A stretch of DNA of 64,000 nt from Vicinamibacterales bacterium (GCA_963761975.1 CAVXIR010000002.1:1477912-1541911); one strand, 5' to 3'. Positions 19,484-47,851 are shown, numbered from the stretch's first letter. Notes: generated by a model from the letters alone, not told the origin. Translations and numbers: made by a program.

Positions 19484-19570
19484 GCGGAAGTGGCGGAACT
19501 GGCAGACGCGCTAGCCTCAGGAGCTAGTGGGCGCAAGCTCATCGGGGTTCAAATCCCCGCTTCCGCACCA
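19484..19570 (+). tRNA. tRNA-Leu (anticodon CAG), CCA encoded
   Basis: Acceptor stem GCGGAAG/CTTCCGC. Anticodon stem CTAGC/GCTAG with loop CTCAGGA. Long variable arm. T-arm CGGGG-TTCAAAT-CCCCG. 3' ACCA. Confidence 0.95.
19514..19570 (+). repeat. attL core (57 bp, 3' part of tRNA-Leu from the anticodon loop to CCA)
   Basis: Identical by eye to 42041-42097. Its last 20 nt also recur at 47806-47825. Confidence 0.85.
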
Positions 19571-19850
19571 TCAACCAAACCCGTCGTGACGGCTCTTTCT
19601 GAGGTTTCTCGTCCGCTTTTGATATAGGTAGCGGGGGCGCTCCACGTTCGCTTGTGCGACGTGTGTGCGACTTTGCTGTAGGCACGAGAGAGCCGTCTGA
19701 TCAGGAATCAGAAATTACACCTCAGCTAGACGCGTCTTCGCGAGGAGGACCGTTTGGCATATGCTGCGGGCCTCTGGGTTGGCAAAAATACGGCCAGCTA
19801 GGATTCGGCGCTCCCGAACCCACGAGACGGCGAAATCCTGGACCAACGCG

Positions 19851-21866
19851 ATGCCTGACCACAACTATTTTGCGAATTTGATCTGGCAGATTGCCGACCT
19901 GCTGCGCGGCCCATATCGTCCGCCTCAGTACGAGCGGGTCATGTTGCCCATGACGGTCTTACGCCGGTTCGACTGTGTGCTCGCGCCCAACAAGGCCAAG
20001 GTGGTGACCGAATACGAACGATCCAAGGACAAGTTCAAGGGCGATGCTCTTGACGCAAGGCTGAATAAGGCTGCCGGCCACCGCTTCCACAATCATTCGG
20101 CACTCGATTTCGAAAGGCTCAAGGGCGACCCGGATCACATCGCGCAGCACTTGGTGAGCTACATAAAGGGATTCTCCGGTAACGTGCGTCGGATCTTCGA
20201 GTACTTCGAATTCGAGAATGAGATCGAGAAGATGCGAGAGGCGAACATCCTATATCTCGTTGTCTCAAAGTTCTGCGACGTGGATCTGACTCCGAGCGAT
20301 GATCCCACGACGGGCGTTCCGAACTATCAGATGGGGCTTATCTTCGAAAACCTCATCCGCCGCTTCAACGAACTCGCAAACGAGACGGCGGGCGATCACT
20401 TCACACCGCGAGAAGTTATCCGTCTTATGGTGAGCGTCCTTTTCATGCACGACGACAAGCTGCTCGCCACTCCCGGCACCATCCGCAAGCTCCTAGACCC
20501 CGCCTGCGGTACGGGTGGCATGCTGGCTGAGGCCCAAAATTACCTGCGCGAGCACCACAGCGCTGCACGTCTTTACGTTTACGGACAGGACTACAACAAG
20601 CGCGCATTCGCTACCGCGGCCTCCGACATGCTGATGAAGCAGGTCGACCGCAACGAAGGCGAAAACAAGATCCGTTTCGGCGACAGCCTGATCAGCGATC
20701 CGAAAGAAGGCGACCAGTTCGCGGGGGAAACCTTCGACTACTTTCTCACCAACCCGCCCTTTGGTGTGGACTGGAAAAAGCAGCAGAAGGAGATCGAGCG
20801 CGAACACGACAAGCTCGGGTTCACGGGCCGCTTCGGCGCTGGATTGCCGCGCATAAACGACGGCTCGCTTCTCTTCCTGCAGCACATGATCGCCAAGTTT
20901 GAACCGGTGCGCCCGGCTGAGCACAAGCACGGCTCGCGCCTGGCGATCGTGTTCTCGGGCTCGCCCCTTTTCACGGGCGGCGCCGGTTCAGGCGAGAGCG
21001 ACATCCGGAAATGGATCATCGAGAACGATTGGCTCGAGGCTGTTATCGCCCTTCCGGAGCAGATGTTCTACAACACAGGAATCGGCACCTACGTTTGGAT
21101 TGTCACCAATCACAAGGAGAAGCGCCGCAAGGGCCGGATCCAGCTTCTCGACGCGCGCGAGTTCTGGACGGCTGGTGGGAGCCAGGAGAGCAAGCGCAGT
21201 CTGGGTGACAAGCGTCGACACATTACTGGGGCTCAAATCGATGACATCGTACGGCTCTACGGTCGCCTAGAAGAGACCGAGCGCTCGAAGACGTTCGACA
21301 CTGCCGATTTTGGTTACACAAGGGTGACCGTCGAGCGTCCGCTGCGCCTGCGTTACAGAATGACCACCGATGGCAAGGCGCGTTTCCTCGACGCCTGTCC
21401 GCACTTGCTCGACGACATACAGGACATTGACACGGTGCTCGGCCGTGAGCCTTTATGCGATTGGAACGCTGCCTGGGTGCGCATCCAGGAAGTACTGCGT
21501 GCTCGTCGCTCGCGTTGGAAGGCGACCGAACTGAAGCTTTTCCGCAGCGTCTTCACCGAGAAGGCCCCAGAGGCCGAGCCCGTCCTGAGAGGCGGGCGCG
21601 GCGAGGGTTACGAACCCGATGCCGAACTGCGGGACTTCGAGAATGTGCCACTCAAGACCGACATCGACACCTATTTCGAGCGGGAGGTGCGCCCCCACGT
21701 GCTCGACGCGTGGATAGATCGTAGTAAGGACAAGCTAGGCTACGAGATCAACTTCAACCGGCAGTTCTATCTGTATACGCCCCCGCGTCCGCTGGAGGCG
21801 ATCGATGCAGATCTGAAGAATGCGGAGGAAGAGATCGTGCGGTTATTGCGGGAGGTGACGAAGTGA
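19851..21866 (+). CDS. hsdM: type I restriction-modification system, N6-adenine DNA methyltransferase subunit M
   Basis: ATG at 19851. HsdM N-terminal region (IWQIADLLRG). SAM motif LDPACGTGGML. Catalytic FLTNPPFG. Confidence 0.95.
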   Translation: MPDHNYFANLIWQIADLLRGPYRPPQYERVMLPMTVLRRFDCVLAPNKAKVVTEYERSKDKFKGDALDARLNKAAGHRFHNHSALDFERLKGDPDHIAQHLVSYIKGFSGNVRRIFEYFEFENEIEKMREANILYLVVSKFCDVDLTPSDDPTTGVPNYQMGLIFENLIRRFNELANETAGDHFTPREVIRLMVSVLFMHDDKLLATPGTIRKLLDPACGTGGMLAEAQNYLREHHSAARLYVYGQDYNKRAFATAASDMLMKQVDRNEGENKIRFGDSLISDPKEGDQFAGETFDYFLTNPPFGVDWKKQQKEIEREHDKLGFTGRFGAGLPRINDGSLLFLQHMIAKFEPVRPAEHKHGSRLAIVFSGSPLFTGGAGSGESDIRKWIIENDWLEAVIALPEQMFYNTGIGTYVWIVTNHKEKRRKGRIQLLDAREFWTAGGSQESKRSLGDKRRHITGAQIDDIVRLYGRLEETERSKTFDTADFGYTRVTVERPLRLRYRMTTDGKARFLDACPHLLDDIQDIDTVLGREPLCDWNAAWVRIQEVLRARRSRWKATELKLFRSVFTEKAPEAEPVLRGGRGEGYEPDAELRDFENVPLKTDIDTYFEREVRPHVLDAWIDRSKDKLGYEINFNRQFYLYTPPRPLEAIDADLKNAEEEIVRLLREVTK

Positions 21867-23152
21867 ACGAGCGGACCGACCTTCCGTCGGGGTGGGCCAA
21901 TCCGCCCGTGTACGCACGCTATTCCGTGCAGCTTGGGAAGATGCTTGATGAAAAACGAATCATCGGAACGCACCTCGCTCCATACCTGAGAAATGTGGAC
22001 GTGCAGTGGGATGGAGTGAACACCCACGATCTACCATTGATGGATTTCACCGAGGAGGATCGCGAGCGCTACAACCTGCGAAAAGGTGACCTACTGGTCT
22101 GTGAAGGTGGCGAAGTGGGGCGTACGGCTGTATGGAAAGGCGAACTGGCAGAATGCTTTTTTCAGAAGGCGATCCACCGTTTGAGGCCGACAAGCGATCG
22201 CGATGACCCTCGATTCTTTCGATACTTTATGCGGATGTCGGTCGATCGCGGGGATTTTGCTCTAAGCACGGCAAGCACTATCCAGCACCTCACAGCTGAA
22301 AAGCTTCGCGTGGTCAGATACCCCGCTCCGCCGGCGGGTCAACAGCGGGCGATCGCCGACTACCTCGACCGCGAGACCGCGAGGCTAGATGCGCTAGTCG
22401 CGGCAAAGGAGCGCCTGCTTGGATTCTTGGCCGAGAAGCGCCGGGTGCTTATCACCCGCGCCGTAACCCGCGGTCTCGAGACGAACTTTCCACTCCGCAA
22501 TTCGGGGAATCCATGGCTGGGCGAGATTCCGGCGCACTGGCAAAGCGGGTGTATTCGAAGGTTCGCAACGATGAAGACGGGGCATACGCCAGATCGAAAC
22601 CAAGCCGAGTACTGGCGCGATTGCGATATCCCTTGGTTCACACTAGCGGATGTGTGGCAATTGCGCGACGACCGTGAGATTTATTTGCGTGAAACGAAGG
22701 AGCGCATCAGCCAACTTGGGCTTGCTAATTCTGCCGCTGAGCTTCTGCCCACAGGAACCGTCGTGTTCTCTCGCACGGCTTCGATCGGCTTCTCCGGTAT
22801 CATGCCGCAACCTATGGCAACAACGCAGGACTTTTGGAACTGGATACCGGGTCCCAAGCTCTCCTCTGAGTACTTGCTTTACGTGTTTCGAGCTATGCGA
22901 CCGGAGTTCGAGCGTCTCGCATTCGGATCCACGCATCGGACAATCTATCAACCGGAGGCAGCAGGTTTGAGACTCGCGATCCCTCCGCTTACCGAGCAGC
23001 ACGAAATCGTCCGACACATTAGTACATCAACGGCTCACCTCGACGAGATCATTTCCGCGACAGAGCGGACTATCTCCCTCATTCAGGAGCGCCGTACGGC
23101 CCTTGTCGTCGCTGCCGTGACAGGTCAGATTGACGTGGCGGCAGCGGCATGA
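21863..23152 (+). CDS. hsdS: type I restriction-modification system, specificity subunit S
   Basis: GTGA overlap with hsdM. Two-TRD architecture with a central conserved helix (QQRAIADYLDRETARLDAL) and a C-terminal repeat (EQHEIVRHIST...LIQERRTALV). Confidence 0.9.
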   Translation: MNERTDLPSGWANPPVYARYSVQLGKMLDEKRIIGTHLAPYLRNVDVQWDGVNTHDLPLMDFTEEDRERYNLRKGDLLVCEGGEVGRTAVWKGELAECFFQKAIHRLRPTSDRDDPRFFRYFMRMSVDRGDFALSTASTIQHLTAEKLRVVRYPAPPAGQQRAIADYLDRETARLDALVAAKERLLGFLAEKRRVLITRAVTRGLETNFPLRNSGNPWLGEIPAHWQSGCIRRFATMKTGHTPDRNQAEYWRDCDIPWFTLADVWQLRDDREIYLRETKERISQLGLANSAAELLPTGTVVFSRTASIGFSGIMPQPMATTQDFWNWIPGPKLSSEYLLYVFRAMRPEFERLAFGSTHRTIYQPEAAGLRLAIPPLTEQHEIVRHISTSTAHLDEIISATERTISLIQERRTALVVAAVTGQIDVAAAA

Positions 23153-24402
23153 TTGTGACGCGCTGCAAGCTCGCGAACGTGCGCGCCATAGAAGCGGCCG
23201 AGTTTCGTTTCCATGCGGGTTTCAACCTCATCGTCGGCGTCAACGGTGTCGGCAAGACGAGCGTGCTCGATGCGTTGGGCGTGTGCCTTTCCGCAGTAAC
23301 GAAGCAGGTCAACAGCCTTCGGGGTCGGATCCACTCCCTCACGCACGATGACATCCGAATAGGCGCCAAAGCGTTAACAATAGAATGCAGTGTCAGCATC
23401 GGCGAGCGGGAAAGCACATACCTACTACACAAGCCCCGAGAGACAAGCGTTCCGCAACGCATGAAGGCGGGGATACCGCGAGAACAGGTCCACGACACAC
23501 CCGAGAGGGCGGAGTTCCTCGGCGAGGCGCCGGCCCCAGTGCCGGGCACGGAACCCGGCGGCCGCCCATTGGCCGTGCTGTTCTCTACCAATCGGGCTGT
23601 GCCGTCCGAGCGGGCGCCGGGACAGAGTGTGGCCGCCGGCGGGATCGCTGCCGCCTTCGCCGATGCCTTCGCGAAGCGGGAGCTGCGCCTCGGTGAGTTC
23701 GGGGCGTGGATGCGCGTGCAAGAGTCGCTTCGGATGGAGCGGCGCGCTGCGGCACACGCGCTCGCGGCATTCGGCGATGCTGTGACGCGTTTCCTCCCCG
23801 ACTACAGCAATCTGAGATTGGCTGGTGGCGACGGGCGGCAGCTCTGGATCGACAGAGGCAGCACGGCGATTCCGGTCCGACAACTCTCAGACGGTGAGCG
23901 GGGTACCCTCGCGCTGGTGTTAGACCTGACCCGCAGGTTGGCACAAGCCAACCCTGGACTCGCTGATCCGGCGGCCGAGGCCGGCGCGATTGTGTTGATC
24001 GATGAGGTCGATCTGCACTTGCACCCGAAGTGGCAGCGGCAGATCGTCCACAGCCTGGCCGCAACCTTTCCGCTTTGCCAGTTCATCGCGACGACCCATT
24101 CCCCACAAGTAATCGGAGAAGTCGAGCCCGAGCGGATACAAATCATCGCGGACAGTCAAGTTTACTCGCCGACGCACTCCTACGGCGTGGATTCAAGTCG
24201 TGTGTTAGAAGAGGTGATGCACTCCGACCCTAGGGCAAAAGAGGTCGGGGACTTGCTTTTGGAGATCTCCCACGTAATTGACAAACGGCAGTTCGTTCGT
24301 GCGCGGGAATTGCTGGCCGAGATCGTCGCGCAACTCGGTGAGACCGATCCCGAGGTGACTCGGATCAGCACTCTTCTCGATTTCGTAGAGGGGAAGGAAT
24401 GA
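23149..24402 (+). CDS. ptuA: ABC/AAA_15-21-type ATPase, Septu PtuA-like
   Basis: ATGA overlap with hsdS. Walker A GVNGVGKTS, LSDGERG signature-like motif, Walker B VLIDEVDLHLHP, H-loop TTHSPQV. Confidence 0.65.
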   Translation: MIVTRCKLANVRAIEAAEFRFHAGFNLIVGVNGVGKTSVLDALGVCLSAVTKQVNSLRGRIHSLTHDDIRIGAKALTIECSVSIGERESTYLLHKPRETSVPQRMKAGIPREQVHDTPERAEFLGEAPAPVPGTEPGGRPLAVLFSTNRAVPSERAPGQSVAAGGIAAAFADAFAKRELRLGEFGAWMRVQESLRMERRAAAHALAAFGDAVTRFLPDYSNLRLAGGDGRQLWIDRGSTAIPVRQLSDGERGTLALVLDLTRRLAQANPGLADPAAEAGAIVLIDEVDLHLHPKWQRQIVHSLAATFPLCQFIATTHSPQVIGEVEPERIQIIADSQVYSPTHSYGVDSSRVLEEVMHSDPRAKEVGDLLLEISHVIDKRQFVRARELLAEIVAQLGETDPEVTRISTLLDFVEGKE

Positions 24403-25049
24403 GGGCGATCGTTAAGGGTGCAGAGCCCGCGAGCCTCGCTACGCATCGGCAGGCACCTCATTGCGACTACGACAATTACGACGATAAGGCTGCGCTGAGA
24501 TATGCCCTTGTGGGCGAGCAGCGCGGGATCTGCTGCTACTGCATGGGGCGCATCCGCAACCACCCAACCATGATGAAAGTCGAGCACTGGCGGTGCCAGA
24601 GTAACCATGAAACAGAGCAGCTCAATTACCTCAACCTACTCGGCGCGTGCCCAGGTGGGGACGGGAAGCCACAGCACCTCCAGCACTGTGACACGAGGAA
24701 AGCCGACCGCGATATCAAATGGAACCCAGCCGATCCCTCACACTACATCGAAACGCGACTGCGCTATGAACTCGACGGAAGCATTCAATCCGACGACGCC
24801 GACTTCGACACGCAGCTTAACGACCTGCTGAATCTCAACCTCGCAATTCTCAGGAACAATCGGAAGGGCGTCCTCGCTGCCGTTCTCCAGTGGTGGCGGC
24901 ATGAGAAAGCGAGGATTGGTGGGGCGGTCCCCCGCGATCGCTTCGAGCGCGAGCGCGCGCGACGAACGAGGGGGGCTGGAGAACTCGAGCCGTTCAGTCA
25001 GGTCGCGGTTTGGTGGCTCGAGCAGCGGCTGGCGAGAATGAACGTATGA
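24399..25049 (+). CDS. ptuB: HNH-type nuclease-like protein (TIGR02646-like), Septu PtuB-like
   Basis: ATGA overlaps on both sides. GICCYCMGRI...KVEHWRCQS...LNYLNLLGACPG...HCDTRKA matches the Cys/His/Asn pattern of that family. Confidence 0.65.
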   Translation: MRAIVKGAEPASLATHRQAPHCDYDNYDDKAALRYALVGEQRGICCYCMGRIRNHPTMMKVEHWRCQSNHETEQLNYLNLLGACPGGDGKPQHLQHCDTRKADRDIKWNPADPSHYIETRLRYELDGSIQSDDADFDTQLNDLLNLNLAILRNNRKGVLAAVLQWWRHEKARIGGAVPRDRFERERARRTRGAGELEPFSQVAVWWLEQRLARMNV

Positions 25050-28000
25050 AGGATACCCGCCATTCCGAAGGGGCCTTCGAGACTGTCATCGAAGCCAACC
25101 TGCTGGGACATGGATACACTCGAATCGACCGTGAGACGTTCGACCGGGAGCGCGCGATTTTCCCGGAAACCGTCTTGGACTTCATTCGCAAGACGCAGCC
25201 CGGCGAGTGGGCGAAGCTGGAGGCCCTACACGGCGCCAGAACGGGCGAGCAAGTGCTCGCGGACCTGTGCAAGTGGATGGACACGAATGGGTCATTGTCC
25301 ACGTTGCGGCACGGGTTCAAGTGTTACGGCCGGCCGCTTCGGATCGCTTTCTTCAAGGCGGCACATGAGCTAAATCAGGAGCTTGAGGCCCGATATGCGG
25401 CGAACTGCTTGGGGCTGACCCGCCAGCTCCGCTTTTCAACCCGGTCAGAGAAGTCACTCGATGTTACGCTCAGCTTGAACGGCATTCCTATCGCGACAGT
25501 CGAGCTAAAGAACCATCTTACAGGCCAGACCGTGGAGGATGCTCTCAGCCAATACAAGCGCGACCGCGACCCCCGAGAGACGATCTTCGAGTTTAAGCGG
25601 CGCACCCTCGTGCACTTCGCCGTCGATACCGAGGCCGTGCGCATGACGACGCGACTGGCCGGTAACGCGACACACTTTCTGCCCTTCGACAGAGGTAGTG
25701 AAGGCGGCGCCGGGAATCCACCGGATCCTGCTGGTCGCACGTACCGCACGGGCTATCTCTGGGAGGAGGCGCTGCAACGCGACAGCCTGCTCGACATCCT
25801 GGCCCGCTTCATCCACCTTCAGATCGAAGAGAAGCGTGACGACCAAGGTCGCAAGGTGAAAGTCGAGAGCATGATTTTTCCGCGGTACCACCAACTTGAT
25901 GCCGTGAGACGGCTGGTCGACGCGGCTCGCACCGAGGGTGTGGGGCATAACTACCTCGTCGAGCACTCGGCCGGCAGCGGCAAGAGTAATACGATTGGCT
26001 GGCTCGCGCACCGGCTGGCCTCCCTGCATGACGCCGTCAATCAGCGCGTCTTTAATAGCGTGATCGTCGTCACGGACCGCGTTGTATTGGACCAACAGCT
26101 CCAGGACACGATTTACCAGTTCGAGCACAAGAGAGGGGTAGTACAGAAGATCGACGAGCGATCCCGACAGCTCGCAGAGGCCCTAGAGAACGCAGTGCCG
26201 GTCATCATCACCACGCTGCAAAAGTTCCCCTTCGTCTCGCGCCAGTTGCTGAAGATGGCCGAAGAGCGCGGCGAGCATGGGAGCGGAACGCTGCCCACAC
26301 GGCGCTGTGCGGTGATCGTTGACGAGGCCCACAGCTCGCAGAGTGGTGAAGCGGCGACGGATCTCAAGGAGGTTCTCGGCGGCGAGGAATTGCTCGAAGA
26401 GGCACGCAAGCGCGCCGCCGAAGAGCAACGCGATAACCTGGAGGAGCTCTTCCGCAGCATGGCGAAGCGCGGGCGACAGTCGAACCTGAGCTTCTTCGCG
26501 TTCACCGCCACACCTAAGCACAAGACGCTCGCCGTGTTCGGCCGTAGCGGCGAGCCGATCCACCGCTACACCATGCGTCAAGCTATCGAGGAAGGCTTCA
26601 TCCTCGATGTGCTCAAGCACTACACGAGCTACGCAACCTACTACAAGCTGCTAAGGGCCTCCGAGGACGATCCCAATGTCGAGCGCAAGAAGGCAGCAAT
26701 AGCACTCGCGCGCTTTTTACGGCTGCACCCGCACAACATCGCGCAGAAGACGGAGGTCATGGTCGAGCACTTCCAGGCCGTTACCCGCCACAAAATTGGC
26801 GGCAGGGCGAAGGCGATGGCCGTCACGGGATCGCGGTTAGAGGCGGTGCGGTACAAGCAGAGCTTCGACCGTTACATCAAGGAGAAGGGTTATGCCATCA
26901 AGACGCTCGTCGCTTTTTCTGGCGCGGTGCAGGATGACAAAATTCCGGATATGGCATACACCGAAGAGAAAATGAATCTCGGCATCCGGGAGAAGGAGCT
27001 TCCTGAGAAATTCGCGACACAGGAATATCAGGTGTTGCTCGTTGCCGAGAAGTACCAGACTGGCTTCGACCAGCCCCTTCTGCACACGATGTACGTTGAC
27101 AAGCGCCTGGCGGGAATTCAAGCCGTGCAGACCCTCTCACGGCTCAACCGGACGCATCCTCTCAAGGAGGATACGTTCGTGCTCGATTTCGTGAACGACC
27201 GGGAAGAGATCCGTGAGGCGTTTAAGGTGTACTACGAAGGGGCGGTCATGGGCGAGGAGGTCGATCCCGCCCGGATGTACGCAATTGAGGGCGAGCTCGA
27301 CGCATCGGGCGTTTATCTGGACGAGGAAGTGGAGCGGTTCTGCGCTGTGTACTTCAAGCCGAAGCAGCGGCAAAGCCCACAGGATCACCAGGGGATGAAC
27401 GCGGCGCTCGATCCAGCCGTCTCGCGGTTCGGCGTCTTGCAGAATGAGAAGGAGGATGAGGCAGAGCTATGGCGAGGTAAGGTGCAGGCGTTCCGGAACT
27501 TGTACGGCTTCCTGAGTCAGATCATTCCGTACCAGGACTCCGACCTTGAACGGCTGTTTGTATTCCTTCGCCATCTGGCGGCGAAGTTGCCGCGCCGCCG
27601 GAGCGGCCCCGCTTACCAGTTCGACGACGAGGTACGCCTTGAGTATTACCGTCTGCAGAAGATCAGTGAGGGCTCGATTTCCCTCAAGAATGGCTATGCG
27701 CAGCCACTGGACGGCCCGAAAGAGGTAGGGTCCGGCTTCGTCCGTGAGGATGCAGTGCCGCTCTCGCAATTGATCGAGGTAGTCAACGAGCGCTTTGGTA
27801 CTGACTTCAACCAAGCAGACCAACTCTTCTTCGATCAAATCGTTGAAGCCGCGGTGACCGACGACGGATTACGTCAGGCAGCTGCTGTAAATCCGGAGGA
27901 GAAGTTTGAACTGGTATTTCGAAATCTGTTGGAGCAGCTGTTCGTCGAACGCATGGATCAGAATGAGGAGATTTTCGTCCGGTATATGAACGACGCATCT

Positions 28001-28087: not shown

Positions 28088-28156
28088 TCGGGTTCTCTGC
28101 ATCTGTCGGTCGTTGCGCGAGGCCGACATTCGAACCTCTCTGACGCGATCAGGAGG

Positions 28157-39093: not shown

Positions 39094-39307
39094 AGGTTAC
39101 TCTCCAGCCTGACGCAGGCCTACCGTGAAGCTCGCCAACATTAATCGTCACCATCGCGAACCCAGGGCCGCGACATTACCACGCCCCTTCGTCGGCAATC
39201 CTACAAGATAGCCCGCGCGGGGAGCCTAGAACGGCCTTTTGTTTATGCTCCCTCAGCGAACGACGTCGCTTGGATGGACGAGCAAGTCCTTAAGAAAGTA
39301 AAACAAC

Positions 39308-40447: not shown

Positions 40448-40494
40448 ATTCAGTTCCTCAACGAATCATCCAGGGGCGCCATTACGCAGCAGGA

Positions 40495-40671
40495 TTAGCG
40501 AGCAATTCGGAAAATCGCAAAGCGCTGCCCGGAGGACTTGAACGTTTTCAGCAAAGCTGCCTTGAAACCGCCGCGCTGTCTGGGCCGCACTAGTCGCCAG
40601 CCCTTGCCGGTGGGCATTTGCACGCCACGCTTGATGTTTGACGACCGCAGTTTGATTCGACCTCTCGCCAT
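40495..40671 (-). CDS. possible small, very basic protein (58 aa; below the ORF-track cutoff)
   Basis: ATG at 40671 lies 5 nt after AAAGGAGGA. Sequence MARGRIKLRSSNIKRGVQMPTGKGWRLVRPRQRGGFKAALLKTFKSSGQRFAIFRIAR. Ends 47 nt upstream of the PIN-like gene. Confidence 0.3.
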   Translation of the reverse strand: MARGRIKLRSSNIKRGVQMPTGKGWRLVRPRQRGGFKAALLKTFKSSGQRFAIFRIAR

Positions 40672-40823
40672 CGCGTCCTCCTTTGGCCTACATCGTTTTT
40701 AGGCGTGAACGCGTGATGAGTGATGTTTCGGTTCAACTCGTGAATACCCGTAGCATTGTGGGTACACAAAATGGCATGCACCATTTGTAATCATTGCGAC
40801 ACCAACCTCGTCGATTCGGCTGA

Positions 40824-41741: not shown

Positions 41742-41778
41742 ATTCGAATGTCGTTCGACTGACCGAGCTTCGATACAA

Positions 41779-41997
41779 TTACCGCGAGGAAGCCGTTGAA
41801 AAACAATCGCGCAACATACGTGAAATGTCGTCAATTACTTGTTGCACGGAAACGTCAGCACTCTCCGTGTGCCGGAAGGAACCGTCCTCAACGTTGAGAG
41901 GCGTGTTTAGAGTTTGACCGCGTTCTATCGGTGCGACTTTGTGCGCGAGCTTCCGTCGCGAGCGATCTTTCATGATCAGCTCCGATCGATGCTCCAT
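41779..41997 (-). CDS. small hypothetical protein
   Basis: 72-aa ORF next to attR. No motif recognised. Confidence 0.25.
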   Translation of the reverse strand: MEHRSELIMKDRSRRKLAHKVAPIERGQTLNTPLNVEDGSFRHTESADVSVQQVIDDISRMLRDCFSTASSR

Positions 41998-42040
41998 CGA
42001 TGAGCGCCGCTAAGATCAGTTCTGACTATAAATTACGGTC

Positions 42041-42097
42041 GCCTCAGGAGCTAGTGGGCGCAAGCTCATCGGGGTTCAAATCCCCGCTTCCGCACCA
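42041..42097 (+). repeat. attR of the first island (57-bp copy of the tRNA-Leu 3' end)
   Basis: gcctcaggagctagtgggcgcaagctcatcggggttcaaatccccgcttccgcacca is identical to 19514-19570. Confidence 0.85.
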
Positions 42098-42107
42098 GAC
42101 TTCGAAG

Positions 42108-42136
42108 TGCCCAGCTTTTGCTGGGCATTTGCGTTT
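42108..42136 (+). terminator. Rho-independent-type terminator after the pseudo-tRNA end
   Basis: tgcccagc-tttt-gctgggca followed by tttgcgttt. Confidence 0.55.
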
Positions 42137-43131
42137 CAGGGTGAATTTAGCTAACGGATAGCTAACACAGGCCGAGATGGGAGCGGTTAGGATGGTCGCT
42201 CTTGCTCAACCCAGACCTGCGCGACCTCGTCACGCTATCCTTCAGTGGACTCGCCATCCTTGTCTCGTCGCTGCGATCTTTTTCGCCAGGCGGACCGCGA
42301 CTCGCCAAAACGCCTTTCACGAGAGGATGGTCGCACTTGCGGACGCGCGGGAGCGTGACCGCCTGCTGGCAGGACCCGAGGTGCGAGCGTCGATACAACG
42401 CGAGGCATCGCACTGGCGCGAATCAAGACTGGCGTGCAAGGTATTGGGCTCGTTGTCCGAAACGAGGGAAAGGTCACGGCCCGAAATGTCCGCGTGCTTC
42501 TCGACGGAAAACCGGCACTCGAGCATCCTCTCGTTCCGCGCGGTGAAGATGAAACACGACTCTTGGCCCGGGTGGGGAAGCTCGGTACATTCTCGCTCTA
42601 ACGATGGGCGCCGCCAGGGCTCTCGACGCTTGCATCGAGTGGCAAAAGCAACTTGTGGAATAAGGAGGGCTAGTAGAAAGAATGTGAGCGCCTTTCGCAT
42701 GGGGAGATACTTCTACAATACCTGCCCACCGCCACAATGCAACCGCTCGAAAACGTCACTCGGCCTTCCCGTTCAGTCGGTCGTTGCTGAAGCCGAATCG
42801 TCAATCTATTTTGTGCTAGCTGCAAAGCGCGGCATCGTTGCTAATTCGTTGGGGATGGGATTCAAAGAGAATGCCGACATCCCGCCTTAAGGAGGTGTGA
42901 ACTCCTTCGATCTGAGCGTCTGCCCATCTCCGGACGATCACGTTCGTGAGGCAATTGTCCATGCATTGGCAGAGGCTCTCGCAGGAGTTGCCGAGGAAGG
43001 ATTGATGCGGGGAGAGGAATGTGAACCCGCAGGTTCAGAGGCGATGACTGTCGCGCTCTCGCCGATTTTTCAGTAATCACTAGGCGACCACAGGAGTAAC
43101 CCACTATGAGGTTTCAGGATCTCGATCCTGT

Positions 43132-43206
43132 TTACGGGCGGCTAATCCACTGCTCATGCGCGGCTTCGAGCGCCTCGGCGATCTGGTTCACTTGCGCAGA
43201 GTGGAC
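43132..43206 (-). pseudogene. Relic of a Ser/Thr kinase gene (subdomain just before the catalytic loop)
   Basis: Translates to VHSAQVNQIAEALEAAHEQWISRP*. Compare QITEALEAAHEKGVIHRDLKP in the 48.7-51.4 kb pseudogene. Confidence 0.5.
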
Positions 43207-43233
43207 TACGTACCGCCTGCTCTAAACGCCGGA

Positions 43234-45906
43234 TCACGGCACGGGAATCCGATACAGGTTGCGCTGCACGCTCTCGCGCGTGAAGGCGTATGTATCAGCA
43301 GTCCGGCCGGGCACCACATCCGTTGACGCGATCACCCGCACTCCCGGCGTCTTCACAATCTCCTGCTCGGATGGGAGCCCATCGATGACGCTCTCGGGCA
43401 GGGGACGGCCCGGCGTCACCGGAAAGACGAAGGTCTTGTCCCTGCTCGCCGGAAAATTCTGCACGAACACATGCTTTCCGTCCCGAGACCACCGCATCAG
43501 TGATCTGCCCGCGATTCGTGTCGGAAGCGGAGCGCCGCCGTCGACGCGGAAAATCAAGGCACCTCCGCCCGGGCCTAAGACCAGCCAGTTGCGGTCTGGG
43601 GATTCACCCATGATGCCAATGATCGACGGGTCGAAGGCTTTCCTCAGCCCGCTTCCGTCTTCCCGAACGCGGTAGAGGAACGCGGAGGTCCCCTCGACGC
43701 TGTGAAAAAAGACTTCACCGGTCGCGCCGAACACGGGGCGTGCGCCTTCGATGTTGGGAATCTGCTGCGGCGGCGAGCGGCGGTCGAGCGGCGCCAGCCA
43801 CAAGCGAAACTTACCAGTGTTGTCAGGCGACGCGACAACGACCTGACGGCCGTCCGGGGAAATGTCGTAGCCTGCCGTGGGAGGATTCCCTGCCATTGAA
43901 ACGGCAAGGCCCGGCAGCAAGGGCTCGCTGCGTCCGGAATCGAGTTCCGCCACCCACAATTCGCTCGCGGCTCCTTTTCGCACCTGATAGAGCAGCCGCT
44001 TCCCATCGGGCGTGAATTTGGGCGCGAAGGCGTAACCTTCCAGCGAGATTTGCCGATCGCCTCCCTCCTCGTGCAGCCAGACGGAACTCTGTGTCAATCC
44101 GACGGCCGTGATGAACGAGCGGCCGTCGGGCGCCATGGCGAGTCCTTCTTCTTCGGTCGGTCCCGACGTAATCTGCTCGGGCTGTCCGTCGGGGAAGCGT
44201 TGACGCCAGATGTGGAAGGCCCCGCCGGAGTCCGAGCTGAAGTACATCCACGCCCCGTCGGGCGACCATGCGGCAAACGTACATTGGCCAGTCGGCGGGC
44301 CGACCTGCTGCCCTGCCGAACTGCCATCCAGCGGCGCCAGGCGGCACCGCACAATAGTTCCCCGCTCGTTCATCTCCACCAGCAGCATCCATTTGCCGTC
44401 GGGCGAGGGATAGGAGCGATGGGCCATGCCGCGCTCATGGGGCGGCACATAGAGATTACGCGACCCGGCCCGGCTCTCATCGGAGGTCACGATCGCCATA
44501 TGCCGGCGCTGATCTTTGATCTCAGAAAACAGCAGCTTCGATTTGTCGATCCACGCCAGCCCAGAGGCGTTCGGAAGCCACAGGCGCGGTTCTCCTCCCA
44601 GCACGGGCACGGCCCACATGTCCCAAAGCTCCCCTACAACCGAGTACGCGATCCGCGACCCGTCCGGTGAAAAGACCGGGCTCATCTTCGTGCGATTATC
44701 GCGGGTGAGCTGCACCGGCTCGCCGCTGGGCAGCATCTTCACGTAGACTTGCCCGTTCGTAGTGAAGCTCGAAGGGCCGCGGATGAAGGTGAGCATGCGG
44801 CCGTCCGGCGAGAGCGCCGGCTGGACGGCCGAGTCGGGCAGGTTCGTGATTTGCACCCATTCGGCGCGCGCCGGGGCGGAAGCAGGCTGCTTCAGCAGCC
44901 ACCCGGCCAGGCCCGCTGCGGCAACTACCAGCCCCACAACTCCCACTGTGATCGCGACAAGGCGTCGAGGCGGCCGCGCGGGCGGACGAACGGCCGTGGC
45001 TGCCCCGACTTGCCCCGAGAGTCTGCCCGACTCGGACTCCTGCTTCAGCTCTTCGAGAGCGAGCTTGATATCGGCGATGCCCTGGGCCCGGCGTTCCGGA
45101 TCCTTGCGCAGGCAACGGGCGATGATTTTGTCCAGTTCCGTCGGCACGCCCGCTGACATCTCGCTCGCGGCCTTCGGCTCGGTGTGCATGATGGCGCCAA
45201 GCGTCGAGATTTTGTTCGTGCCCTCGAAGGCGCGCCGCCCGGTGACCATCTCGTAAAGAACCGAGCCGAACGAAAAAATGTCAGAGCGGCCATCTACCTT
45301 CCTGCCCTCGGCCTGCTCGGGAGACATGTAGGCCACAGTGCCCAGGATGGCGCCCTCTTCTGTTTGAGGTCTTTCCTGCGCCGCCATGGTCGCCGTAGCG
45401 CCTTCCGGATCGTCGTCGATGACTTCAGTCAGCTTGGCCAGGCCGAAGTCGAGCAATTTCACACGGCCATCGTCGGCCACGATGATGTTGGCCGGCTTCA
45501 GATCGCGGTGGACGATTCCGGCGGCGTGGGCGCGCGCCAGTGCGTCGGCGATCTGAATTCCATACTTCAATGCATCTTTTAGACTCAGTCCACTTTTCCC
45601 GATGTATTGGTCGAGCGTCTTGCCTGGCACGAACTCCATGGCGATGAAGTCGGTGGGACCATCAGGCAGATTTGCGCTGGCGATGTCGTAAATGTGGACG
45701 ATGCCGGGGTGATTCAGGGCGGAAGCCGATTTCGCCTCTTGCACAAAGCGGCGCTTACGGTCGGGGCTGGCAGTGGCATCCGGGCGCAACACCTTGATGG
45801 CGACGGCACGGTCGAGATGGGTATCGAACGCACGATACACCACGCCCATGCCGCCCTCGCCGAGCTTGGAATCGATCCGGTAATGGCCTAGCGTCTGGCC
45901 GATCAT
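43234..45906 (-). CDS. Ser/Thr protein kinase fused to a TolB-like (PD40/WD40-like) beta-propeller
   Basis: GEGGMGVVYRA, AIKVL, HRDLKPANI, DFGLAK and YMSPEQ. Then a TM segment, then repeated SPDG...(L/I)(A/T)(F/Y) propeller motifs. Confidence 0.9.
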   Translation of the reverse strand: MIGQTLGHYRIDSKLGEGGMGVVYRAFDTHLDRAVAIKVLRPDATASPDRKRRFVQEAKSASALNHPGIVHIYDIASANLPDGPTDFIAMEFVPGKTLDQYIGKSGLSLKDALKYGIQIADALARAHAAGIVHRDLKPANIIVADDGRVKLLDFGLAKLTEVIDDDPEGATATMAAQERPQTEEGAILGTVAYMSPEQAEGRKVDGRSDIFSFGSVLYEMVTGRRAFEGTNKISTLGAIMHTEPKAASEMSAGVPTELDKIIARCLRKDPERRAQGIADIKLALEELKQESESGRLSGQVGAATAVRPPARPPRRLVAITVGVVGLVVAAAGLAGWLLKQPASAPARAEWVQITNLPDSAVQPALSPDGRMLTFIRGPSSFTTNGQVYVKMLPSGEPVQLTRDNRTKMSPVFSPDGSRIAYSVVGELWDMWAVPVLGGEPRLWLPNASGLAWIDKSKLLFSEIKDQRRHMAIVTSDESRAGSRNLYVPPHERGMAHRSYPSPDGKWMLLVEMNERGTIVRCRLAPLDGSSAGQQVGPPTGQCTFAAWSPDGAWMYFSSDSGGAFHIWRQRFPDGQPEQITSGPTEEEGLAMAPDGRSFITAVGLTQSSVWLHEEGGDRQISLEGYAFAPKFTPDGKRLLYQVRKGAASELWVAELDSGRSEPLLPGLAVSMAGNPPTAGYDISPDGRQVVVASPDNTGKFRLWLAPLDRRSPPQQIPNIEGARPVFGATGEVFFHSVEGTSAFLYRVREDGSGLRKAFDPSIIGIMGESPDRNWLVLGPGGGALIFRVDGGAPLPTRIAGRSLMRWSRDGKHVFVQNFPASRDKTFVFPVTPGRPLPESVIDGLPSEQEIVKTPGVRVIASTDVVPGRTADTYAFTRESVQRNLYRIPVP

Positions 45907-46139
45907 AGCGGCAGCCCCATGAGGCTTAGGCTCTGATTCAGCGAGGCGAGCGTCTTCGCCTCACGCTCGAACCGCGCGACACGGTGGGGGTCAGAGGCGA
46001 ATGCGCCCGGCAGGATCTTGATTGCGACTTGGCGACCCAGCGTTGTATCCGTCGCCCGGTAGACCTGGCCCATCCCACCTTCGCCGATTTGCGATGTGAT
46101 GTCGTAGACGCCGAGGCGCATGGCGGGAGTGAGAGCCAA
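45903..46139 (-). pseudogene. N-terminal fragment of a second Ser/Thr kinase
   Basis: GEGGMGQVYRATDTTLGRQVAIKILP...FEREAKTLASLN, then unrelated residues and a stop that overlaps the ATG of the full-length kinase. Confidence 0.7.
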
Positions 46140-46218
46140 AGGTAACGTGATTATACGAGCGGAAGCGGCGTGCGGACCGGATCAGTCCTCACTGACTCCG
46201 CAGGGATGACGGGGTCCC

Positions 46219-47088
46219 GTGCTGAACAGTCTGACGTCTGCCAGCGGTCAGCGGACCTACGAGCATGCGATTCGCCAGTTGGTCGCCTGGTACTGCTCGG
46301 AGCCGCGGCTCGCGTTCAACCGCACGGTGGTTCTCCGTTATCGGATCCACCTGGAGCAGCGCCGTTACGCGCCGGCAACCATCAACCTGCGACTCGCAGC
46401 GGTTCGCCGGATCGCGTACGAAGCGGCTGATGCCTGTCTGTTGAGTCCCGAACTGGCGGGCATCCGGCGCGTGAGAGGGGTCCGACGGATCGGCGTCCGC
46501 CTCGGGAACTGGTTGACGCCGGAACAGGGCCGACGGCTGCTCGCTGAAGCGGACGTGGCCACGGCGCGCGCACGACGCGATCGTGCCATGCTCGCGATGC
46601 TCATCGGATGCGGGTTGCGGCGTGGCGAGCTCCTCGCGTTGACGCTCGAATCAATTCAGCAGCGCGAGGACCACTGGGTGATTGCCGACTTGGTTGGCAA
46701 GGGTCGGCATGTGCGCACGGTGCCGATTCCGACCTGGGTGAAAACGGCCATCGACGAATGGACGGTTGCCGCGGGAATCACGAACGGCGTGGTGTTCCGC
46801 GCCATCAACAGAGCGGGGCGCGTCTGGGGCAATGGGATGTCTCCGAAGGTACTCTGGGACGTCGTCCGCGCCGCCGCTGCCCGCGCCAACATCGACAAGC
46901 TGGCGCCGCACAATCTTCGGCGCACATGTGCGAGACTGTGCCATTTGGCCGGCGGCGAACTCGACCAGATCCAGTTTCTCCTCGGGCACGTCTCGATCCA
47001 GACGACGGAGCGCTATCTGGGATGCAAGCAGAAGCTCCGCTGTGCCGTCAACGATTCGCTCGGGATCGAGCCAGATGCAGCGGTGTGA
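46219..47088 (+). CDS. tyrosine recombinase/integrase (XerC/D-like size)
   Basis: GCGLRRGELLAL (Arg), APHNLRRTCARL (HxxR) and GHVSIQTTERYL (Tyr). Confidence 0.85.
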   Translation: MLNSLTSASGQRTYEHAIRQLVAWYCSEPRLAFNRTVVLRYRIHLEQRRYAPATINLRLAAVRRIAYEAADACLLSPELAGIRRVRGVRRIGVRLGNWLTPEQGRRLLAEADVATARARRDRAMLAMLIGCGLRRGELLALTLESIQQREDHWVIADLVGKGRHVRTVPIPTWVKTAIDEWTVAAGITNGVVFRAINRAGRVWGNGMSPKVLWDVVRAAAARANIDKLAPHNLRRTCARLCHLAGGELDQIQFLLGHVSIQTTERYLGCKQKLRCAVNDSLGIEPDAAV

Positions 47089-47148
47089 GTCGTTCGACGT
47101 GGGCGGATACGCTGGAACATCCGCCCGTCGCGACTACACGGGAGAATT

Positions 47149-47496
47149 TCAGCGCGCCACCGGAGACAACGTGTTGGCATCGCGGGCAAGCAGCCAGCTT
47201 CCGTCGGGCTGCTTGCGGTAGATAGTGATCCGATGACCTGCCAGCTCCGTTGCTTCTCCCCCAACACGCGGGGTCACGGACAACGAGTCCCGGCAGAGTG
47301 TGTAGGCGACTTCGCCGATCACGACGACCTCTTCCAGCTCGCTGATGCAACGGATCCGAGATTGTTGGTGGGCGGTCGAGAAGCCGGCGGGAAATCCGTC
47401 CCGACCGAGCCGCGCTTGCCCGGGTTCAGAAACACAGCGTCGTCCGCCATCAGGGTGACCAAGCGGGCAAGTTTGGCGGCATTGATTGCGACTCAA
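47149..47496 (-). pseudogene. DUF4440/SnoaL-like gene remnant (frameshifted)
   Basis: The C-terminus ...ITIYRKQPDGSWLLARDANTLSP is typical. The N-terminal homologous stretch (AINAAKLARLVTLMADDAVFLNPG) lies in another frame upstream (to about 47540), behind a TGA. Confidence 0.5.
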
Positions 47497-47805
47497 GCGG
47501 CCGGAAGACGGCGACAGATACTAACCTGGGTCCCAATCGTCGCGGGACCCATCCCTGGCGGTGGAGAGTGCAGATGGGACCTGATGAACGAGCCATCCGT
47601 GAGGTTCATACAACTTGGATTGACGAGGCTGCGCGGACTGCGCTGAGGCAAGATCCAGCGTCGTGGAGAGTTAGCTAACCAAAAGCTAACGAACTCCCCA
47701 GCTCGAGCCGGTCCAGTCGACATGCGCTGGCAGTCGAAATCGTAGATTTCTTAATGATTTGGCACTTTCTGAACCTACCCGGCATCCACCAACACTCACT
47801 CTGCG

Positions 47806-47825
47806 AAATCCCCGCTTCCGCACCA
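47806..47825 (+). repeat. 20-bp remnant of the tRNA-Leu 3' end (outermost att-like repeat)
   Basis: aaatccccgcttccgcacca equals the last 20 nt of the tRNA (19551-19570). Confidence 0.7.
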
Positions 47826-47851
47826 GCCTTCGCTCGCGTTCAGGCGAAGGC
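47826..47851 (+). terminator. Hairpin directly after the outermost tRNA remnant (possibly the original tRNA terminator)
   Basis: gccttcgc (47826-47833) pairs with gcgaaggc (47844-47851), followed by tgttat. Confidence 0.4.

What the first reader, a model, noticed from the sequence alone, without database searches (positions are those of the whole stretch)
19484..47851. Three copies of the tRNA-Leu(CAG) 3' end delimit a ~28-kb two-layer insertion, each copy with its own terminator
- The intact tRNA (19484-19570) is followed 22.5 kb later by an exact 57-bp copy running from the anticodon loop to CCA (42041-42097). Another 5.7 kb on, there is a 20-bp copy (47806-47825).
- The second copy is followed by a classic terminator (42108-42136).
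- The third copy is followed by a GCCTTCGC/GCGAAGGC hairpin (47826-47851), which would be the pre-insertion tRNA terminator.
- Each segment carries its own tyrosine recombinase (28157-29365 and 46219-47088).
- This reads as successive integrations at one tRNA, with the older element (42.1-47.8 kb) decaying into kinase fragments and a DUF4440 remnant.
Basis: seen in the sequence. Interest (0 to 1): 0.6.

Follow-up and report, generated by a model that had tools for sequence, protein, structure and literature searches.

The report
Two mobile elements stacked at tRNA-Leu
Two unrelated integrating DNA elements, a 22.5-kb phage-defence island and a 5.7-kb decayed remnant, sit one behind the other at a single leucine tRNA gene of a soil acidobacterium; this layout is real but well known.

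Summary
tRNA-Leu(CAG) at 19484-19570 is followed, in direct orientation, by an exact 57-bp copy (42041-42097) and an exact 20-bp copy (47806-47825) of its 3' end. None is expected by chance.

- **Repeat lengths:** The 57-bp copy starts at the anticodon stem/loop (tRNA position 31). The 20-bp copy starts in the T loop (position 68). These are the two classic crossover sites of tRNA-targeting tyrosine integrases.
- **Element B (19571-42097):** It has lower GC than its surroundings. It carries type I R-M with an embedded Septu pair, an intact 402-aa integrase, a D5-type helicase and an IS630 dimer.
- **Element A (42098-47825):** It has host-like GC and is decayed. Its recombinase lacks the RBS and first 27 codons.
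- **Native junction:** In nine relatives (Vicinamibacterales or unclassified Acidobacteriota MAGs, one labelled Bifidobacteriaceae), a tRNA-Leu(CAG) 3' end, intact gene or fragment, directly abuts a homologous hairpin with compensatory changes. The closest relative lacks A and B.

- Copy 1 has no terminator.
- The kinase in A is intact. The frameshifted kinase lies outside the array.
- The BON gene is not the tRNA's neighbour in most relatives.
- The whole tRNA block is inverted relative to five relatives.

This is a new member of a known kind, the Islander-type tandem array.

The parts
19484..19570 (+). Intact tRNA-Leu(CAG). Its last 57 nt (19514-19570) are attL of element B.
   Evidence: ARAGORN. 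The roughly 37-nt promoter-proximal region and the tRNA are conserved in relatives L004-L006.
19571..42040 (.). Element B, an integrative island of about 22.5 kb with GC 0.54-0.59.
   Evidence: Bounded by the exact 57-bp direct repeat. Tetranucleotide r to the core is 0.76-0.94, against at least 0.97 for core pieces. Absent from the tRNA locus of relative L012. Its backbone is shared at about 77% nt with L014 and L015.
19761..28087 (+). Cargo operon: hsdM 19761-21866, hsdS 21863-23152, Septu ptuA 23149-24402, ptuB 24399-25049, hsdR 25010-28087.
   Evidence: Pfam. PADLOC gives MTase_I 8.7e-251, Specificity_I 2e-93, PtuA 1.8e-112, PtuB 4.4e-70 and REase_I 6.2e-36. No counterpart lies after the integrase in L014 or L015.
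28157..29365 (-). Int-B, a 402-aa tyrosine integrase that appears intact.
   Evidence: PF00589 4.6e-23. phrog_1 integrase 9.3e-55. R, K, HxxR, H and Y motifs are visible in the sequence. Homologues of 86-88% aa identity occur in B-like backbones L014 and L015.
29362..29667 (-). 101-aa ORF overlapping the Int-B start; a conserved partner and possible excision factor.
   Evidence: Homologous ORFs lie directly upstream of int in L014 and L015, at 42-44% aa identity. No family hit.
29746..31987 (+). Head-to-tail IS630 dimer. The first copy is frameshifted; the second encodes a 350-aa DDE_3 transposase (30886-31938). It is a secondary insertion into B.
   Evidence: Direct repeats spaced 1097/1098 nt apart. 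Pfam DDE_3. In L014 and L015, window positions 29745 and 31988 are nearly adjacent.
32287..33720 (-). D5_N/DUF5906/Pox_D5 helicase (primase-helicase C-terminal type), the replication module of B.
   Evidence: Pfam. PHROG 'DNA primase' families match only the C-terminal halves of their profiles. At most 36% identity to phage primases.
36842..41741 (.). Right-hand cargo of B: DUF429 (36842-37645, -), XRE (37704-37949, +), PIN_12 (39308-40447, -) and a SIR2-like protein (40824-41741, +).
   Evidence: Pfam. Weak PADLOC hits to PDC-S44 and SIR2. XRE and DUF429 are shared with L015.
42041..42097 (+). Displaced tRNA fragment (tRNA positions 31-87). It is attR of B, and its last 20 nt are attL of A.
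   Evidence: Exact 57/57 match to 19514-19570.
42108..42136 (+). Terminator-like hairpin supplied by element A behind the tRNA 3' end.
   Evidence: -21.2 kcal/mol, z = -3.7, tail TTTGCGTTT.
42098..47805 (.). Element A, a 5.7-kb decayed integrative remnant with GC 0.622.
   Evidence: Bounded by the 20-bp direct repeat, 26/27 when downstream bases are included. Absent from L012. Tetranucleotide r is 0.936.
43234..45906 (-). Intact 890-aa Ser/Thr kinase with PD40 beta-propeller repeats.
   Evidence: Pkinase 7.4e-46 and PD40 9.4e-23.
45933..46115 (-). Fragment of a kinase N-terminus, matching residues 6-66 at 60% identity to the neighbouring kinase.
   Evidence: tblastn. Similar to kinase 5' ends in L018.
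46219..47088 (+). Int-A, a 289-aa tyrosine recombinase truncated at its 5' end. About 125 nt are missing, including the RBS and the first 27 codons.
   Evidence: PF00589 6.6e-24. Aligns to XerC-like 4a8e with the catalytic motifs present. Homologues are 316-318 aa. The nucleotide alignment to L017 and L018 shows the deletion.
47152..47520 (-). DUF4440-like ORF, below the Pfam threshold.
   Evidence: PF14534 E = 4.7e-5, 24.2 bits against a cut-off of 25.2; profile positions 33-106 of 107.
47806..47825 (+). Displaced native tRNA 3' end (tRNA positions 68-87), attR of A.
   Evidence: Exact 20/20 match.
47826..47851 (+). Native tRNA-downstream hairpin, GCCTTCGC(T)...(A)GCGAAGGC.
   Evidence: -20.3 kcal/mol, z = -2.9. 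A hairpin starts at +1 after CCA in nine relatives, with compensatory changes: GACTTCGC/GCGAAGTC, GCCTCCGC/GCGGAGGC and ACCGACGC/GCGTCGGT.
47905..48426 (-). BON-domain (OsmY-like) gene, the first native gene beyond the array.
   Evidence: Pfam BON 5.4e-33. In L011, the 86%-identical orthologue is likewise followed by a hairpin and a 29-bp tRNA-Leu fragment.

Best explanation
This is a tandem array of two unrelated integrative elements at the single tRNA-Leu(CAG) gene in this window, in a Vicinamibacterales-like acidobacterium.

Each element entered by tyrosine-recombinase crossover inside the tRNA gene. Each brought a replacement 3' part, so the tRNA stays intact, and pushed the displaced 3' fragment to its far end.

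Element B (19571-42097):
- It crosses over at the anticodon stem/loop, which gives a 57-bp repeat starting at tRNA position 31.
- It has an intact 402-aa integrase with a conserved small upstream partner, and a D5-type helicase.
- It has variable cargo bays at both ends. Here these hold a type I R-M operon with an embedded Septu pair, plus DUF429, PIN and SIR2-like genes.
- It has since been hit by an IS630 dimer.

Element A (42098-47825):
- It crosses over in the T loop, which gives a 20-bp repeat starting at position 68.
- It supplies its own terminator-like hairpin.
- It is now a decayed remnant, holding a 5'-truncated recombinase, a kinase fragment and a sub-threshold DUF4440-like ORF. It is probably no longer able to move by itself.

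The 47826-47851 hairpin is the original sequence downstream of the tRNA.

Shown: the repeats, their positions in the tRNA, the gene content, the native junction in relatives, and the absence of A and B from the closest relative.

Inferred:
- A arrived before B. The structure alone fits either order, because A could have entered B's displaced fragment.
- Int-A was A's integrase.
- B can still excise.
For: - The repeats are exact, in direct orientation, and not expected by chance.
- Their starts fall at tRNA position 31, in the anticodon stem just before the loop, and at position 68, in mid T loop (read from the sequence). These match the 'anticodon-centred' and 'T-stem region' attP classes that Islander counts: 2083 and 1836 islands. 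Islander defines a tandem array as islands that each have their own tDNA fragment and integrase, and found 125 of them in 2168 genomes (PMC4383910).
- Int-A and Int-B share only 28% identity, and both carry the catalytic motifs.
- Native junction: seven genome-contig loci have the tRNA directly followed by G[C/A]CTTCGC...GCGAAG[G/T]C. Where tested, their downstream genes are ordinary, with no integrase.
- L012, from the same sample and 90-94% nt identical across 47.9-55.5 kb, has the tRNA plus hairpin and neither A nor B.
- L011 has BON, a hairpin and a 29-bp fragment, as at window copy 3.
- B is compositionally foreign. Its backbone recurs in L014 and L015 with different cargo and without the IS dimer.
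- Other elements carry 50-55-bp tRNA-Leu(CAG) 3' fragments: IMG/VR contigs L019 and L020.
- Two long assemblies share the full layout. A short contig's gene calls (no DNA available) fit the copy-3/BON junction.
Against:
- No exact 'tRNA-hairpin-BON' empty site was found.
- Int-B lies 8.6 kb from attL rather than next to it.
- B-like elements L014 and L015 show no tRNA-Leu fragment within the DNA available, so Int-B's target is inferred from this locus alone.
- Int-A is truncated. Its 89-90% identical homologues in L017 and L018 lie next to kinase genes, with no tRNA or tRNA fragment within 10 kb either side.
- A has host-like GC and host-like genes (kinase).
- The copy-3 hairpin lacks a U-tract, so calling it a terminator is an inference.
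Confidence: 0.78

Rival explanations
1. Only B is a genuine, self-encoded integrative element. The 20-bp copy would then be the scar of an older integration or rearrangement whose own integrase is gone. Int-A would be an unrelated member of a high-copy, kinase-associated recombinase family that happens to lie there.
For: - The Int-A family is very large and very conserved. 7997 of 8000 scored candidates reach E <= 1e-20, and the best 120 clusters are 81-95% identical.
- In L017 and L018 it forms a compact unit of about 1.16 kb beside a kinase-PD40 gene, with no tRNA or fragment within 10 kb.
- The window copy lacks its RBS and first 27 codons.
- A has host-like GC, and kinase genes and fragments are typical of the host chromosome.
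Against: - The recombinase lies 718 nt from the 20-bp fragment and reads towards it, the usual position for an island integrase.
- Only two other contexts were inspected.
- The T-loop start of the repeat and the element-supplied terminator behind copy 2 fit a real attP-bearing element.
Confidence: 0.3
2. A and B joined in an earlier host and arrived here as one 28-kb composite (accretion), integrating through the outer sites. The 57-bp copy would be an internal relic.
For: Tandem arrays can excise as composites; this is known for ICE/CIME accretion in streptococci (literature listed, not read in detail). The structure is compatible with this.
Against: - A and B differ strongly in composition.
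- The bases after copy 3 match the local native hairpin, while those after copy 2 differ from it, as two local events would predict.
- B-like backbones occur elsewhere without A.
- Entry as a unit would need a T-loop crossover by the now-truncated Int-A.
Confidence: 0.08
3. The repeats are an assembly artefact, or a local duplication unrelated to site-specific recombination.
For: The assemblies look long-read based, and differ from each other by indels.
Against: - Two long assemblies share the layout, and a short contig's gene calls fit one junction.
- The repeats start at canonical tRNA sublocations.
- The intervening DNA carries integrases and has foreign composition.
Confidence: 0.03

Closest known systems
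Islander-type tandem arrays of tRNA-integrated genomic islands (Hudson, Lau & Williams 2015, PMC4383910; sublocation classes of Williams 2002)
   Same: An intact tDNA is followed by direct 3' fragments. Each island has its own fragment and tyrosine integrase. The fragments begin at the anticodon-centred and T-stem/loop sites. The element restores the tRNA 3' end.
   Different: The host is an uncultured Vicinamibacterales-like acidobacterium. The two layers use two different sublocations of the same tRNA. The inner layer's recombinase is truncated and of uncertain affiliation. Excision has not been shown.
P4-like satellites and other integrative islands with phage-type primase-helicase and defence cargo
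   Same: Integrase, a small partner ORF and a D5-type helicase form the backbone. Defence systems (type I R-M, Septu) sit in a variable bay next to the integrase. Integration is into a tRNA-Leu gene.
   Different: No P4 capsid-size, psu, delta or cos functions were detected. The integrase has no detected P4-type arm-binding domain. The helicase is at most 36% identical to any phage primase in the collection and lacks a detectable primase domain. The crossover is at the anticodon loop, giving a 57-bp repeat.
CIME/ICE accretion in streptococci (att-flanked remnants beside an active element)
   Same: A decayed, att-flanked remnant (A) sits in tandem with a more complete element (B) at one site.
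   Different: No conjugation or mobilisation genes were detected in either layer. The two layers have unrelated recombinases and different core sites, so trans-mobilisation of A by Int-B is not expected.

Membership tests
tRNA-integrated genomic island, tandem array (Islander definition) | Intact tDNA plus displaced 3' fragment(s) in the same orientation | tested here: met
   Three + strand copies: the 87-nt tRNA, then exact 57-bp and 20-bp fragments; 0 expected by chance.
tRNA-integrated genomic island, tandem array (Islander definition) | Each island has its own integrase gene and its own fragment | tested here: met
   Int-B at 28157-29365 and Int-A at 46219-47088, both with PF00589 hits. 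Int-A lacks its first 27 codons.
tRNA-integrated genomic island, tandem array (Islander definition) | Fragments begin at a canonical crossover sublocation (anticodon loop, T loop or 3' end) | tested here: met
   They start at tRNA positions 31 and 68, read from the sequence. The classes are as described in PMC4383910.
tRNA-integrated genomic island, tandem array (Islander definition) | Islands are absent from related genomes, where the tRNA abuts its native downstream sequence | tested here: met
   L001-L007 and L012 have the tRNA followed directly by a homologous hairpin. L012, 90-94% nt identical in the flank, has no A or B.
tRNA-integrated genomic island, tandem array (Islander definition) | Excision to a circular form with restoration of attB | not testable with these tools
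P4-like satellite | P4-type integrase with an N-terminal arm-binding domain | tested here: inconclusive
   Only PF00589 and phrog_1 match. No arm-binding domain family was reported.
P4-like satellite | Alpha-type primase-helicase | tested here: inconclusive
   D5_N, DUF5906 and Pox_D5 are present, but the matches cover only the C-terminal halves of PHROG primase profiles.
P4-like satellite | Capsid-hijacking genes (sid, psu, delta) and a cos site | tested here: not met
   None of the ten ORFs searched against PHROGs had a structural or hijacking hit, and Pfam on the remaining B ORFs found no such family. cos was not searched.
ICE / IME | Relaxase and/or type IV secretion or coupling protein | tested here: not met
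   No such Pfam family was found among the ORFs of A and B that were scanned.
Septu defence system (PtuA/PtuB) | Adjacent AAA ATPase PtuA and HNH-type PtuB | tested here: met
   PADLOC PtuA 1.8e-112 and PtuB 4.4e-70. The genes overlap, at 23149-24402 and 24399-25049. Function was not tested.

The most novel reading that the evidence does not exclude
Int-A may not be an island integrase at all. It could represent an extremely abundant, highly conserved 317-aa tyrosine recombinase family of soil Acidobacteriota that travels as a compact unit of about 1.16 kb and lies beside a Ser/Thr-kinase/beta-propeller gene in all three contexts seen. That would make it either a minimal recombinase-only mobile unit or a system that rearranges kinase genes. 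The 20-bp tRNA copy would then be a by-product of its recombination, or of an older event.
Probability: 0.1. Interest if true: 0.6.

Novelty: new member of a known kind. Interest (0 to 1): 0.25.

Why it matters
The finding has four uses.
- It gives exact boundaries for two mobile elements in a poorly studied, uncultured soil lineage.
- It shows that tRNA-Leu(CAG) is a recurrent integration and rearrangement hotspot in Vicinamibacterales.
- It identifies element B as a vehicle for defence systems (type I R-M with embedded Septu, and candidate DUF429, PIN and SIR2 modules).
- The exact att sites would allow a direct integration assay for Int-B.

The architecture itself is textbook and adds no new principle.

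Tried and rejected
- This ruled out read-level tests for excision junctions, a whole-genome census of tRNA fragments and Int-A copies, and a check for a second tRNA-Leu(CAG).

**Searches that found nothing useful**
- An exact search of metagenome contigs for the window's own copy-3/hairpin junction found nothing.
- The search for related loci with Int-B found no relatives in metagenome or viral contigs. The Int-A homologue P0256 found none in viral contigs.
- The exact-protein look-up for the left-flank hydrolase found nothing.
- BON homologue L013 (72% identity) lies in an unrelated context.
- Plasmid and phage collections hold only distant relatives of Int-B (at most 31%) and of the helicase (at most 36%).

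**Readings considered and rejected**
- The shorter 20-bp repeat does not reflect decay of a longer one. It starts precisely in the T loop, and identity resumes after CCA.
- The 137-aa + strand ORF at 47233-47646 is not a gene. It has no family hit, an Arg-rich sequence, and is not called in the ENA annotation.
- Integrase-mediated inversion through the att copies does not explain the block inversion. The tRNA 5' half moved together with the block.

Full report
**1. The observation**

ARAGORN finds a single tRNA in the 64-kb window, tRNA-Leu(CAG) at 19484-19570 on the + strand. The last 20 nt of this gene occur exactly three times, all on the + strand, at 19551-19570, 42078-42097 and 47806-47825. 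Shuffled sequence gives 0.00 matches even when two mismatches are allowed.

The second copy is an exact 57-bp match to 19514-19570, and identity extends to 60/62. The third copy is exactly 20 bp. Copies 2 and 3 also share six of the seven bases after CCA (GACTTCG against GCCTTCG), so they match 26/27.

42108-42136 folds at -21.2 kcal/mol (z = -3.7) and has a TTTGCGTTT tail. 47826-47851 has a 9-bp stem at -20.3 kcal/mol (z = -2.9) but no U-tract. The 70 nt after the intact tRNA fold no better than shuffles (z = +1.1), so only two of the three copies have 'their own terminator'. The simple consensus scan listed neither hairpin.

A second assembly, ENA contig_22588, is 99.5-99.9% identical to the window, differs by indels, and shows the same layout. 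By its gene calls alone (no DNA was available), a short Logan contig appears to span the copy-3/BON junction.

**2. Where the repeats start in the tRNA**

I numbered the gene from the sequence, taking the anticodon at position 35.
- The anticodon stem is 28-32/40-44 and its loop is 33-39.
- The T stem is 60-64/72-76 and its loop is 65-71.

The 57-bp repeat starts at position 31, two bases before the anticodon loop. The 20-bp repeat starts at position 68, in the middle of the T loop.

These are the two symmetric crossover sublocations described for tRNA-targeting tyrosine integrases. The Islander paper counts 2083 islands with anticodon-centred attP sites and 1836 with T-stem-region sites. It defines a tandem array as islands that each have their own tDNA fragment and integrase, and found 125 such arrays in 2168 genomes (PMC4383910). 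A Klebsiella survey reports the same two attB extents (10.1101/2020.11.02.365908).

The different repeat lengths therefore reflect two integrases with different core sites, not age.

**3. Element B (19571-42097)**

- **Left cargo:** A translationally coupled operon encodes hsdM, hsdS, a Septu pair and hsdR (Pfam). PADLOC scores are PtuA 1.8e-112, PtuB 4.4e-70, MTase_I 8.7e-251, Specificity_I 2e-93 and REase_I 6.2e-36.
- **Integrase:** A 402-aa tyrosine integrase lies on the minus strand (PF00589; phrog_1 9.3e-55). It has all the catalytic motifs. An overlapping 101-aa ORF lies just upstream.
- **IS insertion:** A head-to-tail IS630 dimer follows.
- **Replication module:** A D5_N/DUF5906/Pox_D5 helicase follows.
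- **Right cargo:** Small unknown ORFs, DUF429 with an XRE regulator, a PIN_12 protein and a SIR2-like protein complete the element.

GC falls from 0.59 to 0.54 along the element. Tetranucleotide correlation with the flanking core falls to 0.76, against at least 0.97 for core pieces.

Int-B homologues of 86-88% identity lie in two contigs, L014 and L015. Both share the small-ORF-plus-int end with B at about 77% nt. L015 also shares XRE, DUF429, ORF133 and the helicase. In both, window positions 29745 and 31988 are nearly adjacent, so the IS630 dimer is a later insertion. In both, the DNA after the integrase is unrelated to the R-M/Septu operon.

The 8.6 kb between attL and int is therefore a variable cargo bay rather than a third layer. 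No att site was found within the DNA available for L014-L016.

The nearest entries in the phage and plasmid collections are distant, at 36% or less for the helicase and 31% or less for the integrase. No capsid-hijacking, relaxase or secretion genes were detected. I therefore describe B as an integrative defence island with a phage-type helicase, not as a member of the P4 family.

**4. Element A (42098-47825)**

A begins with the terminator-like hairpin. Its contents are:
- unassignable ORFs;
- an intact 890-aa Ser/Thr kinase with PD40 repeats;
- a 61-residue fragment of a kinase N-terminus at 45933-46115;
- the 289-aa recombinase Int-A;
- a sub-threshold DUF4440-like ORF on the minus strand at 47152-47520 (24.2 bits against a cut-off of 25.2).

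In relative L012 that stretch is replaced by about 395 bp.

Int-A aligns to XerC/XerD-type structures and has the R, K, HxxR, H and Y motifs. It is only 28% identical to Int-B. Its homologues are 316-318 aa long. Nucleotide alignment with L017 and L018 shows that the window copy has lost about 125 nt, comprising the RBS and the first 27 codons.

The family is very large and very conserved. 7997 of 8000 scored candidates reach E <= 1e-20, and the best 120 clusters are 81-95% identical. In the two other contexts I could inspect, it forms a compact unit of about 1.16 kb (92% nt identical between L017 and L018). That unit sits next to the 3' end of a kinase-PD40 gene, with no tRNA or tRNA-Leu fragment within 10 kb.

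A's GC (0.622) is host-like, and its tetranucleotide correlation is mildly low at 0.936.

A is therefore a decayed layer. That Int-A made the 20-bp repeat is plausible from its position, 718 nt from the fragment and reading towards it, but it is not shown.

**5. The native site in relatives**

An exact-pattern scan of one genome per species found seven loci in which tRNA-Leu(CAG) is followed directly by G[C/A]CTTCG. These are Vicinamibacterales or unclassified Acidobacteriota MAGs, plus one labelled Bifidobacteriaceae whose proteins are up to 91% identical to the window's.

In all seven, and in L011 and L012, a hairpin begins at +1 after CCA. Its stem shows compensatory changes: GCCTTCGC/GCGAAGGC, GACTTCGC/GCGAAGTC, GCCTCCGC/GCGGAGGC and ACCGACGC/GCGTCGGT. 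The hairpin after window copy 3 is the local version of this conserved structure.

Downstream genes in the relatives sampled (L002-L006) are ordinary where they could be identified: an FG-GAP/BACON protein, a methyltransferase, Lgt, TonB and an amidase. No integrase was found.

L012 is the closest relative. It comes from the same sample and is 90-94% nt identical over window 47.9-55.5 kb. It has the tRNA plus a homologous hairpin and no trace of A or B. However, 5.5 kb of other genes separate the hairpin from BON.

L011, whose BON protein is 86% identical, has BON, a hairpin and a 29-bp tRNA fragment, like window copy 3, with no tRNA-Leu within 10 kb.

The fragment-hairpin-BON adjacency in two genomes makes it the likely ancestral state of this sub-lineage.

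Other signs that this tRNA is a hotspot:
- L005 has a second 31-38-bp fragment 1.45 kb downstream of its tRNA.
- L012 has an inverted partial copy with its hairpin about 2.9 kb beyond the 5' end of its tRNA.
- Two IMG/VR contigs carry 50-55-bp 3' fragments without a full tRNA.

**6. An inversion seen on the way**

In five relatives (L001, L002, L004, L006, L007), the SppA / 123-aa-gene / SurA side lies next to the 5' end of the tRNA and is transcribed divergently from it. This side corresponds to window 54766-64000. In L004, FtsH (window 13984-15999) lies downstream of the tRNA.

In the window these flanks are swapped relative to the tRNA. A single in-situ inversion of roughly 19.45-54.77 kb explains this. 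That segment runs from the tRNA through the islands, BON and MerR.

L012 shares the MerR/123-aa junction but lacks A and B. The inversion therefore appears to predate both insertions and is not part of the mechanism. The left breakpoint cannot be fixed, because sequence upstream of the -10 region diverges in all relatives.

**7. Order of events and activity**

The structure fits two histories equally well. Either A entered first and B second, or B entered first and A then entered B's displaced fragment, which still holds an intact T arm.

A's decay and host-like composition favour A being older. Exact 57/57 identity, an intact integrase and foreign composition suggest that B is recent. The IS630 dimer sits between the int module and the helicase, and may or may not impair B's mobility.

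**8. Verdict**

Section 4 and the interpretation field list the corrections.

This kind of structure is well catalogued: it is an Islander-type tandem array. The finding is therefore a new member of a known kind and of modest interest. The least ordinary loose end is the Int-A recombinase family itself.

Noticed in passing
window ~19447-54765 relative to L001, L002, L004, L006, L007: The whole block from the tRNA through both islands, BON and MerR is inverted relative to five relatives. In those relatives SppA and the 123-aa gene lie at the tRNA 5' side, and in L004 FtsH lies downstream. L012 shares the right-hand junction but lacks the islands, so the inversion looks older than the insertions.
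   Followed up: partly
L012:16048-16134 (-) and L012:19048-19129 (+): The closest relative has its tRNA-Leu(CAG) plus an inverted partial copy (31 bp exact, about 59 bp degenerate), separated by 2.9 kb. Each is followed by more than 80 nt of homologous downstream hairpin sequence. This could be an invertible segment or the scar of an inversion. No integrase was detected nearby.
   Followed up: partly
window 46195-47140; L017:9940-11098; L018:9940-11106: Int-A belongs to a very abundant, 81-95% conserved family of 316-318-aa recombinases in soil Acidobacteriota. It forms a compact unit of about 1.16 kb with a shared left end (C[G/A]CAGGGATGACG) and a terminal hairpin. In the window, L017 and L018 it lies beside a Ser/Thr-kinase/PD40 gene. 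The window copy has a deletion of about 125 nt that removes the RBS and codons 1-27.
   Followed up: partly
window 29746-31987: The head-to-tail IS630 dimer has a frameshifted first copy and an intact second copy. It is absent from the B-like backbones L014 and L015, so it is a secondary insertion between the int module and the helicase.
   Followed up: yes
window 48557-51368: The kinase/PD40 gene is broken into several frames (fragments at 48768-49100, 49097-49582 and 50272-51357). In L012 this stretch is replaced by about 395 bp. The two assemblies of this locus differ by indels (12 gap openings in 21 kb), so some frameshifts here, and the split hsdR in the ENA annotation, may be long-read errors.
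   Followed up: partly
L001-L007, L011, L012; window 47826-47851: A hairpin starts at +1 after the CCA of tRNA-Leu(CAG) in all these genomes, with compensatory stem changes. Several relatives carry an interior of about 55 nt containing a recurring motif, GCT(T/A)CG(G/T)CTGGCAAGCC. It may be a processing or terminator element, or a small repeat family.
   Followed up: partly
L005:1574-1660 and L005:3110-3147: A relative has its tRNA and a second 31-38-bp fragment 1.45 kb downstream. Both are followed by nearly identical hairpins. This is a miniature att-flanked insert with no recognisable gene.
   Followed up: no
window 19265-19306: A perfect tandem duplication of a 21-bp unit (ATCAAGCCGCTGTAACACCGC) spans the stop codon of the 3-keto-disaccharide hydrolase gene, 180 nt upstream of the tRNA.
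   Followed up: no
L019:875-929; L020:11546-11595: Two IMG/VR viral contigs carry 50-55-bp 3' fragments of this tRNA-Leu(CAG) without a full tRNA. These may be attP or attR sites of other elements that use the anticodon-loop site.
   Followed up: partly
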